From Chrysomallon squamiferum (Eukaryota > Animalia > Mollusca), in NCBI GenBank assembly GCA_012295275.1, contig CM022678.1:18786001-18850000 (forward strand): a DNA stretch of 64,000 nucleotides, read 5' to 3'. The translations under genes and the position numbers were made by a program. Every line of letters starts with the position of its first letter. The first letter of the stretch is position 1. Under the pieces are notes generated by a model. The model did no database searches. It saw only the letters and a list, made by a program, of their open reading frames with translations, and had not been told where the DNA came from. Shown in pieces: positions 639 to 12,774 of the stretch.

Positions 639-3600
639 ATGTCCCCGGTAATAATTCTAGTGTTCCTTTTATCGCAGATAGGTAAGTGTGTTTGAACTGT
701 TTAGGAAGGTTTTCAGTCTGTGCACGTGTGCTCTGTTTGTAAGGTTTGAGTGTGTTTCCTCTCGTCCTTTTGTTTATGTATGTTCTCGCGTGCTCGTGTT
801 TCTTGATTAGAAACATCCAAAGTTCATTTATATTGTAATAAAAATGACCAGGCACTCTAATGAGAAAACTGGAACAGGGAAATATAATATTCAGATAATT
901 AAATTGTAAACGTGATAGCTAAGTATAAATAAATGAAATAAAATTCTTCATCCCACACAATTTATAATACAGAAAAATATAATATTGTACACCTAGACTC
1001 GGCTCCGAAAACTACATCTGATTATTAAAAAACAGCTATCGTCTCATCGTCATCAAATACATATAGCGGTAGAATTTAACAATTTCTGACTATTTTGGGC
1101 GCTTTGCCGTTTTGGGTAGATCGCAGTCCCCAATTTATGTTGATTAGGCCCAATGCTCAAAAAGCCCTGAGGAGCCCACACATTTTTATTTTTGTTTTCT
1201 TTCTTTATTTTATTATTATTTTTTTAATATATATGCCTTTCAATTATTTAATAGCAAAGTTAAAAATACAGATCTGAAAATTTTGGAAATATTTTAACAC
1301 GTTTTGTAGTTTGCTTCTTAGTTTGACCCACGATATGTATGTATGTATGTATGTATGTATGTATGTATGTAAGTATGTATCTACGTATGTATGCATGTAT
1401 TTATATATGTATGTATGTATGTATGTATGTATGTAAGTATGTATCTACGTATATATGCATCCATGTATGTATGTATGTATTTATGTGTGTATCTATGTAT
1501 GTATGTATTTATGAATAAAAGAACGCACTGGAAAAGGAAATTCTTTTATTACTTAACAAAATTTAATCATTTTCTAATTTTATCTCTAGGGATTCGATTT
1601 AACTTAAAATTGACCATTGTAATGTTTATTATAGTGTGCTTTGGTTCTATGTTTTTTTGTTTATTAATTTATTTTACTTCGTTCATCAACATTTTCGTGT
1701 TATTCTGAAAATCGGATACAGACTAAAATGTCTTTTAGACTAGGTTTTTTTCTGTAAGCTATGACGGGTCGTGCTGTTAGAGGATTTTTCATAGTAGTCT
1801 GTAAATTAAAATATTGCTCCTTCATAATTTTACCAACGTCAACGTTGCGGCGATTGTAAATTATTGGAAAACTTATTTTATCTCTCTTTTTACATCTGCC
1901 CGACTCAACATTTATTCCGAATGGTTTTATGGTTTGTAACGTGCGAATCCAAAACGCTTCTCGTTGAAGTCTCGAGAATTGGCGTCGGTTCTGTTGGGAT
2001 TATTTCAAAATGATCCTCCAGGTAGGTTAAAATGTTTGGCGACAGGAATGTCAACTTCATGCCAAATATCGTATTTGTGTCTAGCAGTTATAACTCGTAA
2101 CATATTTTGTGTTTGGCCGACGTATAGTTTTGTACACAAATTGCATGTTATCAAATACACAACATTTTTGGAATCGCAGTCTAGGTTAGTTCGGTTTTGA
2201 TATTCACTTTTTGTTTCTTCGCTACTGAACGTAGACTGAGATTTTATTATGTCCTGGAGTCTGCATCTGATCTGTTTGCAGATCCGTGTAGATCCGGTAC
2301 CCAAGTGGGGTAGAATATTACGTTGGAATATTATGTTGGTTTGAATGTGTCTGTTGGATGCAAATGTTTTTCTAATTCTATGACTGTTTCAGATTTAATT
2401 TTCCTTACAACTCGGTTTCAATAACCTCTCGATTTCAGAGAGCAAAATAGAACTGAACAGGCCTTATTAAAATTTTCTTTGTTACTCGAATTTCTATGGA
2501 ACCTAATGACTTGAGATTTAACGATACCTTTAAACGTATGATGGGGATGAAATCATCTATAATGCAGTTGTTGGTGGGTGTCCATGGGTTTAGAAAATAC
2601 TTTATATTTAAAATGTCCCCGGTAATAATTCTAGTGTTCGTTTTATCGCAGATAGGCAAGTGTGTTTGAACTGTTTAGGAAGGTTTTCAGTCTGTGCACG
2701 TGTGCTCTGTTTGTAAGGTGTGAGTGTGTTTCCTCTCGTCCTTTTGTTTATGTATGTTCTCGCGTGCTTGTGTTTCTTAATTAGAAACATCCAAAGTTCA
2801 TTTATATTGTAATAAAAATGACCAGGCACTCTAATGAGAAAACTGGAACAAGGAAATATAATATTCAGAAAATTAAATTGTAAACGTGATAGTTAAATAT
2901 AAATAAATGAAATGAAATTCTTCATCCCACACAATTTATAATACAGAAAATTATAATATTGTACACCTAGACTCGGCTCCAAAAAATACATCTGATTATT
3001 AAAAAAACAGCTATCGTCTCATCGTCATCAAATACATATAGCGGTAGAATTTAACAATTTCTGACTATTTGGGCGCTTTGCCGTTTTGGGTAGATCGCAG
3101 TCCCCAATTTATGTTGATTAGGCCCAATGCTCAAAAAGCCCTGAGGAGCCCACACATTTTTATTTTTGTTTTCTTTCTTTATTTTATTATTATTTTCTTA
3201 ATATATATGCCTTTCAATTATTTAATAGCAAAGTTAAAAATGCAGATCTCAAAATTTTGGAAATATTTTAACACGTTTTGTAGTTTGCTTCTTAGTTTGA
3301 ACCACGATATGTATGTATGTATGTATGTATGTATGTATGTATGTATGTATGTATGTATGTATGTATGTATGTGTATGTATCTATGTATGTATGTATGTAA
3401 GTAAGTATGTATCTACGTATGTATGCATGTATTTATGTATGTATGTATGTATGTATCTAAGTATTATCTACGTATATATGCATGTATGTATGTATGTATG
3501 TATTTATGTGTGTATTATATATGTATGTATTTATGAATTAAAGAACGCACTGGCAAAGGAAATTCTTTTATTACTTAACAAAATTTAATGATTTTCTAAT

Positions 3601-12600: not shown

Positions 12601-12774
12601 ATTATTATTATTATTATCGTCATCATCATCATTAGAATATGTTTGACGTAGGTTTGTTTGTTTATTTATTTACAGAATATTTTTTTTCCATTTCAGATGC
12701 AGTACAATTTTATTCATCAACTTCTATTAGAATGGTTGTTATCATTCAGTGTCATTCAAGAGAGATTGAGGTAA
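639..12774 (+). CDS. Receptor-type protein tyrosine phosphatase-like gene, copy A: SP-ShKT-EGF repeats-TM-single PTP domain, 13 exons, 885 aa; probably catalytically impaired
   Basis: Hand-spliced exons with GT..AG borders and compatible phases: 639-681 ([14 protein letters not shown]), 5460-5570 (ShKT), 6337-7428 (EGF repeats), 7743-7842 (TM), 8230-8336 (basic RKMKKRSK), 8883-9286, 9956-10043 (KNIYRNIKP), 10386-10462 (DYINASFID), 10806-10940 ([20 protein letters not shown]), 11254-11379 (KCSLYWP), 11623-11783 (MDWRD..IVHC), 12337-12472 ([17 protein letters not shown]), 12697-12774 (QYNFI..TAA). Total 2658 nt with no internal stop. Confidence 0.9.
1335..1510. repeat. (TATG)n compound microsatellite; also 3309-3535, 22724-22830, and (CATA)n at 26325-26670 and 30318-30352
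   Basis: Direct reading. Confidence 0.95.
1560..2605 (-). mobile_element. Penelope-like retroelement fragment (GIY-YIG endonuclease end), decayed
   Basis: ORF 2005-2304: [35 protein letters not shown], followed in a shifted frame by [15 protein letters not shown] (~1910-1955). This is the characteristic PLE GIY-YIG with Cys/His motif. Confidence 0.88.
2613..2655 (+). other. Duplicated first exon inside intron 1, with GC donor and no upstream promoter region
   Basis: ATGTCCCCGGTAATAATTCTAGTG...ATAG|gcaagt, part of the ~1.97 kb local duplication. Confidence 0.7.
3590..5292 (-). mobile_element. Penelope-like retroelement, 5'-truncated and internally deleted (RT + GIY-YIG)
   Basis: [15 protein letters not shown] (5018-5305), [25 protein letters not shown] (4647-5021), [11 protein letters not shown] (~4495-4530) and GIY-YIG (4102-4308), with frameshifts. 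It lies antisense in intron 1. Confidence 0.9.
5460..5570 (+). CDS. Exon 2 of copy A, ShKT (ShK toxin-like) domain
   Basis: Phase 1-1 exon encoding [37 protein letters not shown]. The six Cys follow the C-x-D..C..C..C-x-KSC-xx-C pattern typical of ShKT. An alternative in-frame acceptor would start the exon at 5466. Confidence 0.8.
6337..7428 (+). CDS. Exon 3 of copy A, about 9 MEGF10/SCARF/Draper-type Cys-rich EGF-like repeats
   Basis: Repeats of about 32-34 aa of the form C-x3-C-x4-C-x5-C-x3-C-xx-G-[FY]-[FYW]-G-xx-C within ORF 6270-7526; ttttag acceptor and gtaagt donor. Confidence 0.92.

What the first reader, a model, noticed from the sequence alone, without database searches (positions are those of the whole stretch)
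639..12774. ShK-toxin domain capping an EGF-repeat receptor phosphatase (SP-ShKT-EGFn-TM-PTP)
Seen: a 111-nt phase 1-1 exon missed by the ORF track encodes a six-Cys ShKT-like module. It joins in frame between a 43-nt signal-peptide exon and the EGF exon, in both gene copies. Known: ShKT modules occur mostly in toxins, astacins, tyrosinases, peroxidases and CRISPs, and MEGF-type EGF-PTP receptors are expanded in molluscs. Inference: a ShKT at the distal tip of a receptor PTP is an architecture I do not recognise as described. It could be the ligand- or ion-channel-contacting tip of a signalling receptor.
Basis: partly seen in the sequence, partly recalled or inferred. Interest (0 to 1): 0.85.

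Follow-up and report, generated by a model that had tools for sequence, protein, structure and literature searches.

The report
ShK-like cap on receptor phosphatase family
Two neighbouring copies of an animal cell-surface receptor gene each carry a small exon, spliced in related transcripts, for a likely sea-anemone-toxin-type (ShKT) fold at the outer tip of a cysteine-rich stalk above a tyrosine phosphatase, which likely makes this a variable recognition receptor of a kind I did not find described.

Summary
A 13-exon GT-AG gene at 639-12774 gives an open 882-aa protein (not 885): signal peptide, six-Cys module, about 10 MEGF/SCARF-type repeats, one transmembrane helix, one D1-type tyrosine phosphatase. 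A second copy (22018-31778) has the same 111-nt phase 1-1 exon 2. RNA contigs of paralogs (not this exact copy) join exon 1 to exon 2 and 5570 to 6337. The ShKT call is likely, not proven: Cys spacing, Asp at C1+2, Lys-Ser/Thr before C5 and ESM-Atlas neighbours say ShK, but Pfam ShK does not hit and two weak AlphaFold models match nothing. No ShKT occurs in 18 EGF-rich relatives, and 10 paper searches showed no such architecture; InterPro could not be queried. The closest known system is the clustered Biomphalaria MEGF receptor phosphatases at schistosome-resistance loci, which carry a galactose-binding domain and two phosphatase domains. Here the family is multicopy and the module's loops vary between paralogs. 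It lacks the Lys-Tyr dyad and is not basic, so an ion-channel-blocking role is unlikely. Copy 1 has altered catalytic motifs; copy 2 is nearly canonical. Verdict: new variant of a known kind.

The parts
639..681 (+). copy 1 exon 1: start codon and hydrophobic signal-peptide core
   Evidence: mean hydropathy 2.4 over residues 3-16; exon-1-type letters precede exon 2 in RNA contigs
5460..5570 (+). copy 1 exon 2: six-Cys ShKT-like module, spacing 6-5-7-3-2, phase 1-1
   Evidence: Atlas neighbours ShK; no Pfam hit
6337..7428 (+). copy 1 exon 3: 63 Cys, about 10 MEGF/SCARF-type repeats ending in GxxC
   Evidence: relatives are mollusc MEGF-like proteins and EGF receptor phosphatases; Pfam only EGF_TEN E 0.0057, below cut-off
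7743..7842 (+). copy 1 exon 4: transmembrane helix
   Evidence: best 19-aa hydropathy window at residue 430; X3 contigs continue from 7428 into a TM-type exon
8230..9286 (+). copy 1 exons 5-6 (8230-8336, 8883-9286): basic stop-transfer stretch and acidic juxtamembrane region with several Tyr
9965..12774 (+). copy 1 exons 7-13: single D1-type tyrosine phosphatase domain with KNIY, WRD and HCSDSVGR in place of KNRY, WPD and HCSAGVGR; stop at 12772-12774
2613..2655 (+). duplicate exon 1 with a GC donor inside intron 1, part of a 2-kb tandem duplication (632-2477 / 2606-4481)
17011..17500 (+). orphan remnants of phosphatase exons 12-13 from a third, deleted paralog
20509..20551 (+). further exon-1 paralog with GT donor and no exon 2 of its own
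22018..22060 (+). copy 2 exon 1
24326..24436 (+). copy 2 exon 2: six-Cys ShKT-like module
   Evidence: Atlas neighbours ShK
25218..26309 (+). copy 2 exon 3: EGF-like repeats, 62 Cys
26903..31778 (+). copy 2 exons 4-13: TM, juxtamembrane region, phosphatase with KNRY, WID and HCSAGVGR; open (890 aa) only if exon 5 ends at 27411
34174..34216 (+). further exon-1 paralog with no downstream exons in the window

Best explanation
This is a tandemly duplicated single-pass receptor tyrosine phosphatase gene whose outermost module is a likely ShKT-fold domain that likely serves as a variable ligand-recognition tip rather than a channel blocker. Shown: exon structure, open frame, family-level splicing of exon 2, EGF-like stalk, one TM, one D1-type phosphatase, many paralogs, variable exon-2 loops on a fixed Cys frame. 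Inferred: a symmetrical phase 1-1 ShKT exon was shuffled in between the signal-peptide exon and the stalk exon, taking the place held by a galactose-binding domain in snail relatives; the stalk holds it away from the membrane; binding of a non-self or cell-surface ligand changes receptor clustering and so phosphatase output. Copy 2 would be the active form; copy 1, with altered pTyr loop, WPD loop and P-loop, would be weak or inactive and act as a modulator or decoy. A role in immune or microbial recognition is inferred by analogy only.
For: Structure and frame. Splicing in paralogs. ShKT features: six Cys, Asp at C1+2, Lys-Ser/Thr before C5 in both copies, matching the conserved Asp5, Lys30, Thr31 of ShK-type peptides (PMC4306950 passage; PMC7056315 passage; the Cys positions used for the mapping are recalled). 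Atlas: 22 of 30 hits (copy 1) and 23 of 30 (copy 2, named clusters) fall in the ShK set, scores 0.92 with 189-190 features shared, 10 of the best 10 family-bearing hits agree; a 96%-ShK cluster scores 0.89. No Gly in the module against 10% in the EGF exon; no blastp hit of exon 2 to 18 EGF-rich relatives at E<=1. Cys kept at 68 of 69 ectodomain positions against 74 of 331 other positions changed, p 5e-6. Family size and variable loops: 1584 contigs of run X4 lie on 2026 bases, most under 95% alike; cover falls in the middle of exon 2; loose ends read in frame as paralogs with other residues and one fewer between C2 and C3 (read by eye). Analogy: clustered, polymorphic MEGF receptor phosphatases at snail resistance loci (PMC12297450 passages; PMC13712769 section 20).
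Against: Pfam ShK does not hit in 5 cuts of exon 2. No ShK-family chain among 8 and 6 PDB sequence hits at E<=10. The best Atlas cluster with a family is only 11% ShK, and shuffled proteins reach 0.9 in 4-10 of 100. A loose six-Cys pattern also arises inside MEGF repeats (12 of 18 relatives; strict pattern 1 of 18). Positive selection on exon 2 is not shown: 8 replacement and 1 silent change, dN/dS 2.1, p 0.68; against intron 2, p 0.053; the excess divergence of the EGF N-half affects silent sites too. No ligand, tissue or activity data. The phosphatase does not group with the mollusc MEGF-PTP domains with support.
Confidence: 0.5

Rival explanations
1. Exon 2 is not ShKT but a lineage-specific or degenerate piece of the furin-like/MEGF cysteine array; the gene is an ordinary EGF-repeat receptor phosphatase.
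For: No Pfam, PDB-sequence or representative-library match to ShK. The C-x3-C-x2-C end also occurs in MEGF and furin-like repeats, and loose patterns hit 12 of 18 relatives. Exon 3 begins with C-xx-GYY, as such repeats do.
Against: Atlas neighbours are ShK, not EGF, for both copies; Asp and Lys-Ser/Thr at the ShK positions; no Gly; a closed set of six Cys in its own phase 1-1 exon with an even count (62) in copy 2 exon 3; no similarity to the relatives' repeats.
Confidence: 0.2
2. The module is a true ShKT that contacts a potassium or other ion channel, in cis or on another cell, and couples it to phosphotyrosine signalling.
For: ShKT domains of toxins, MMP23 and CRISPs act on channels (PMC5793123 passages; PMC6409789 introduction).
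Against: The C3-C4 loop has no Lys and no Lys-Tyr dyad in either copy; net charge -1 and 0. A short natural ShKT without a working dyad had no Kv activity (PMC5793123). Loop variation across paralogs fits variable ligands better than a conserved pore.
Confidence: 0.1
3. The module is a structural cap or self-recognition/adhesion domain in a developmental or neural receptor; the copy number reflects neutral birth-and-death in a repeat-rich region and copy 1 is on its way to a pseudogene.
For: The window is littered with fragments: 5 exon-1 copies, orphan phosphatase exons, a possible frame problem in copy 2 exon 5. No significant positive selection. Mosaic identity (exon 9 134 of 135 identical, exon 4 69 of 100) points to gene conversion.
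Against: Both copies keep open frames and Cys frames; phosphatase dN/dS 0.40, p 0.0003; several paralogs are in RNA contigs of 3 runs.
Confidence: 0.2

Closest known systems
Biomphalaria MEGF/galactose-binding-domain receptor-like PTPs (SudRes1 of B. sudanica, PMC12297450; LG5R subgroup 1C of B. glabrata, PMC13712769)
   Same: Signal peptide, MEGF/SCARF-type cysteine stalk, one TM, cytosolic PTP; clustered recent paralogs, fragments and variable ectodomains.
   Different: They carry a galactose-binding/fucolectin domain and two PTP domains; here a 29-residue six-Cys ShKT-like module and one PTP domain. 'ShK' occurs 0 times in the main text of either paper. Orthology not shown.
Bivalve and abalone EGF-repeat receptor phosphatases in databases (P0001-P0003, P0006, P0008, P0009, P0012, P0013, P0016, P0017)
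   Same: About 27-30% identity along stalk, TM and PTP for the best ones; D1-type phosphatase.
   Different: 9 of these 10 have two PTP stretches; 0 of 18 hits have ShK at E<=1; they are longer (1262-1793 aa).
ShKT domain proteins (ShK, short AsK132958, MMP23, astacin-ShKT, CAP-ShK with EGF-like domains in Cumia)
   Same: Six-Cys frame with Asp near C1 and Lys-Ser/Thr before C5; Cumia CAP-ShK type II also mix poorly recognised ShKT domains with EGF-like domains.
   Different: Those described in the papers read are secreted peptides or enzyme-linked; none is on a receptor phosphatase. No Lys-Tyr dyad here; Pfam threshold not reached.
Vertebrate PTPRA/PTPRE D1 domains
   Same: Best phosphatase matches among those compared, 46-47%; top of the exon-12 search.
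   Different: Short non-cysteine ectodomain and tandem PTP domains (recalled); the likeness probably reflects slow evolution, the tree leaves the relation open.

Membership tests
ShKT domain (Pfam PF01549) | Score at or above the Pfam ShK profile threshold | tested here: not met
   No ShK hit in 5 cuts of exon 2 at E<=5 or <=1; HMMER filters drop most matches above E 0.1.
ShKT domain (Pfam PF01549) | Six Cys in 27-37 residues ending C-x3-C-x2-C | tested here: met
   Spacing 6-5-7-3-2 over 29 residues in both copies.
ShKT domain (Pfam PF01549) | Fold-stabilising Asp near C1 and Lys-Thr/Ser before C5 | tested here: met
   Invariant D and K, S/T; role from PMC4306950 and PMC7056315 passages; mapping to Cys positions recalled.
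ShKT domain (Pfam PF01549) | Two-helix fold | tested here: inconclusive
   Model 1 two helices, pLDDT 59.7; model 2 one helix plus strands, pLDDT 68.7. Too weak to compare.
ShKT domain (Pfam PF01549) | Disulfides C1-C6, C2-C4, C3-C5 | not testable with these tools
   Model coordinates are not returned; needs experiment.
ShKT domain (Pfam PF01549) | Nearest embedding neighbours are ShK clusters | tested here: met
   (22 of 30 and 23 of 30 hits; top family cluster only 11% ShK; a lead-grade test).
Kv-blocking ShK-type toxins | Lys-Tyr dyad between C3 and C4 | tested here: not met
   No Lys or Tyr in that loop in either copy; net charge -1 and 0.
Receptor-type classical PTP | Signal peptide, one TM, PF00102 domain inside | tested here: met
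   signal peptide judged by hydropathy only.
Receptor-type classical PTP | Intact catalytic motifs (KNRY, WPD, HCSAGxGR, Q loop) | tested here: inconclusive
   Copy 1 [15 protein letters not shown]; copy 2 [15 protein letters not shown]; catalytic Cys, Arg, Asp and Gln kept in both. Activity untested.
Biomphalaria MEGF/GBD-RPTP (SudRes1, LG5R 1C) | MEGF/SCARF-type stalk | tested here: met
   Homology to mollusc MEGF-like proteins, E to 2e-82; about 10 GxxC-ended repeats.
Biomphalaria MEGF/GBD-RPTP (SudRes1, LG5R 1C) | Galactose-binding/fucolectin domain | tested here: not met
   No room in the 882-aa model and no Pfam hit on exons 2-3.
Biomphalaria MEGF/GBD-RPTP (SudRes1, LG5R 1C) | Tandem PTP domains | tested here: not met
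   Stop follows the single domain in both copies; no further PTP exons in the window apart from a D1-type remnant.

The most novel reading that the evidence does not exclude
A lineage-specific family of dozens of receptor phosphatases uses a shuffled-in, loop-hypervariable ShKT exon as its recognition tip, in paired catalytically active and dead forms, with the ShKT-EGF cassette itself repeated or circularised: a toxin scaffold turned into a diversified non-self or symbiont sensor, not described before.
Probability: 0.25. Interest if true: 0.78.

Novelty: new variant of a known kind. Interest (0 to 1): 0.52.

Why it matters
Clustered MEGF receptor phosphatases are candidate parasite-recognition genes in snails, but what they bind is open. 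A 29-residue, foldable, variable tip on a relative gives a small and testable handle on ligand recognition by this receptor class, and would show a non-toxic receptor use of the ShKT scaffold, whose range of functions is called an open question (PMC5793123). It also shows that profile scans miss this exon, so the architecture may be hidden in other genomes. If exon 2 is not ShKT, the locus is an ordinary expanded invertebrate receptor phosphatase.

Tried and rejected
Pfam on exon 2, 5 cuts: nothing. PDB sequence searches: only beta-2-microglobulin, big defensin and an acyltransferase at chance level. Two AlphaFold models (pLDDT 59.7 and 68.7, differing in secondary structure); Foldseek gave one chance row each, VIA-align one Z 2.1 row and none: no verdict on the fold. 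Profile of the two exon-2 copies against 1.84 billion representatives: 2 hits at E<=0.001, both unrelated tandem repeats. Word search with exon 2 among longer proteins: no candidate. Exon-12 search: 592 of 966 candidates, best 120 listed, nearly all vertebrate PTPRA/E, none with PF01549; uninformative on lineage. Metagenome contigs with exon 3: 310 pattern matches, 0 relatives. No whole genome held, so paralogs could not be collected. Earlier findings: 4 look-ups, nothing relevant. Paper searches without a description of the architecture: (open-access library only; no supplements read, and the snail papers' supplementary domain tables might list ShK). Rejected: that exon 2 is a chance intronic frame; that positive selection on exon 2 is shown; that the phosphatase is a D2-type domain. 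The share of words held by the RNA runs was small (0.05-0.08) and says nothing on habitat or tissue.
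Full report
Observation. The window is AT-rich, microsatellite-rich animal DNA. Exon 2 (5460-5570) is 111 nt, phase 1-1, and encodes six Cys with spacing 6-5-7-3-2. A second copy runs from 22018 to 31778 with the same exon at 24326-24436. A strict ShKT-like pattern occurs only in these two places in the window and in 0 of 100 shuffles. Of 4 candidate stop-free phase 1-1 segments with fair splice signals in 682-6336, the two with six Cys are this exon and a 6-nt shorter form.

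Splicing. Four runs hold parts of the locus; I laid them on 5415-7440. In the three RNA runs, all from one study, cover lies mainly on exons 2 and 3. One X2 contig skips exactly the intron 5571-6336 with GT..AG ends. Two X1 contigs carry exon-2-type letters before exon 3. X1 and X2 each have a contig with exon-1-type letters before exon 2, and two X3 contigs run from 7428 into a transmembrane-type exon. X3 also holds intron-containing pieces. Run X4 (kind not on record, covers introns) lays 1584 contigs on 2026 bases, 908 of them under 95% alike, up to 49 sharing one other letter at a site. That is no copy number, but it points to many paralogs or alleles. Cover drops in the middle of exon 2, and loose ends there, read in frame by eye, keep C2 and C3 but with different residues and a shorter loop.

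Is exon 2 ShKT? For: six Cys, Asp two after C1 and Lys-Ser/Thr before C5 in both copies, the positions described as fold-stabilising in ShK-type peptides (PMC4306950, one passage; PMC7056315, one passage, which doubts the salt bridge but keeps Asp5 and Thr31 as structural; Cys numbering recalled). ESM Atlas places both copies next to ShK clusters (22 of 30 and 23 of 30 hits, scores 0.92; the best family-bearing cluster is 11% ShK, a 96% cluster scores 0.89). A natural ShKT six residues shorter than ShK is known (PMC5793123, passages), and poorly recognised ShKT domains occur beside EGF-like domains in a snail (PMC6409789, passages and introduction). The module has no Gly, unlike the stalk repeats, and no similarity to 18 EGF-rich relatives. 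Against: no Pfam ShK hit in five cuts, no ShK chain in two PDB sequence searches, and loose six-Cys patterns arise by chance within MEGF repeats (12 of 18 relatives, strict 1 of 18). Structure prediction gave no verdict (see Tried and rejected). I put ShKT fold at about 0.75. The Lys-Tyr dyad that defines channel blockers is absent and the module is not basic.

The rest of the protein. Exon 3 holds 63 Cys and about ten GxxC-ended repeats. Its relatives among longer proteins are 18 of 388 candidates; all 15 with a name are molluscan, 10 carry a tyrosine phosphatase, 9 of those two domains, and none has ShK. The organism is thus probably a mollusc or other lophotrochozoan (inference); no close relative is in the databases. 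A tree of 29 phosphatase rows (both copies, nine mollusc, one sponge and four vertebrate proteins; P0008 left out as an isoform, aligned pieces under 150 residues dropped, the other vertebrate hits not used) puts both copies among D1-type domains with 100/99 support but leaves their place within that group open. Copy 2 has KNRY, WID and HCSAGVGR; copy 1 has KNIY, WRD and HCSDSVGR. Catalytic Cys, Arg, Asp and Gln remain in both; that copy 1 is weakened is inference from PTP motif knowledge (recalled). Copy 2 lacks copy 1's exon-5 donor and reads into a stop if spliced nearby; it is open (890 aa) only with a donor at 27411, so it may be intact, a pseudogene or an assembly error.

Evolution. Between the copies 68 of 69 ectodomain Cys positions are kept while 74 of 331 others change; the phosphatase is under purifying selection (dN/dS 0.40, p 0.0003). 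Exon 2 has 8 replacement and 1 silent change (dN/dS 2.1, p 0.68; against intron 2, p 0.053): suggestive only. Identity is mosaic along the gene, as after gene conversion. Five exon-1 copies and orphan phosphatase exons show active birth and death.

Mechanism. Most likely a type I receptor: signal peptide, ShKT-like tip, rigid cysteine stalk, TM, acidic juxtamembrane region, one phosphatase. The symmetrical exon suggests entry by exon shuffling (inference). Ligand binding at the variable tip would change clustering and phosphatase output, with impaired copies as modulators (inference). Recognition of microbes, parasites or non-self is the best guess, by analogy with Biomphalaria MEGF receptor phosphatases that cluster at schistosome-resistance loci and vary in their ectodomains (PMC12297450, passages; PMC13712769, passages and section 20). 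Rivals: a degenerate cysteine repeat (0.2), a channel-contacting domain (0.1), a structural or adhesion cap in a neutrally expanding family (0.2).

Comparison and novelty. It works like the snail MEGF/galactose-binding receptor phosphatases but fails two of their features (lectin domain, tandem phosphatase). It has the ShKT cysteine frame but misses the Pfam threshold and is not filed as a channel toxin. Ten searches of the open-access library showed no ShKT-bearing receptor phosphatase; the two papers holding all terms were a snail venom study (listing only) and an astacin review (passages) where the terms are unrelated. I also read passages of PMC6278862 and PMC13273113; no supplements. InterPro and subscription papers were out of reach, and ShKT is a mobile domain found in very many architectures, so an annotated but unremarked ShKT-PTP elsewhere is quite possible. 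Verdict: new variant of a known kind, interest 0.52.

Noticed in passing
window 7428>5460 (run X2, record 9): An RNA contig joins the end of exon 3 back to the start of exon 2, in frame (phase 1), then on to exon 3: a circular RNA of the ShKT-EGF cassette or a paralog with that cassette in tandem.
   Followed up: no
window 632-2477 / 2606-4481: 2-kb tandem duplication inside copy 1 that repeats exon 1 with a GC donor at 2613-2655; possible alternative first exon or assembly artefact.
   Followed up: partly
window 20509-20551 and 34174-34216: Two more signal-peptide exon paralogs with upstream promoter-like similarity and GT donors but no exon 2 or 3 of their own; the one at 20509 could splice to copy 2 exon 2.
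   Followed up: partly
window 17011-17500: Degenerate phosphatase exons 12-13 with flanks, the 3' remnant of a third paralog.
   Followed up: partly
window 27365-27447: Copy 2 exon 5 is shifted against copy 1 and has lost the matching donor; an upstream donor at 27411 keeps the frame.
   Followed up: partly
window 52184-54357 (minus) and 60872-62545 (minus): A TPR-repeat gene (TPR_19 E 4.8e-6) in two long frames, with an 80% identical duplicate that has frameshifts and stops.
   Followed up: partly
window 49080-49688 (plus): 202-codon open frame, Ser/Asp-rich start and basic end, no Pfam match.
   Followed up: no
window 18071-18598: 39-bp minisatellite array.
   Followed up: no
P0005 and P0017: The same EGF-like stalk occurs with a tyrosine kinase (P0005) and with an N-terminal F5/8 galactose-binding domain plus phosphatases (P0017): tip and tail modules are exchangeable in this receptor class.
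   Followed up: partly
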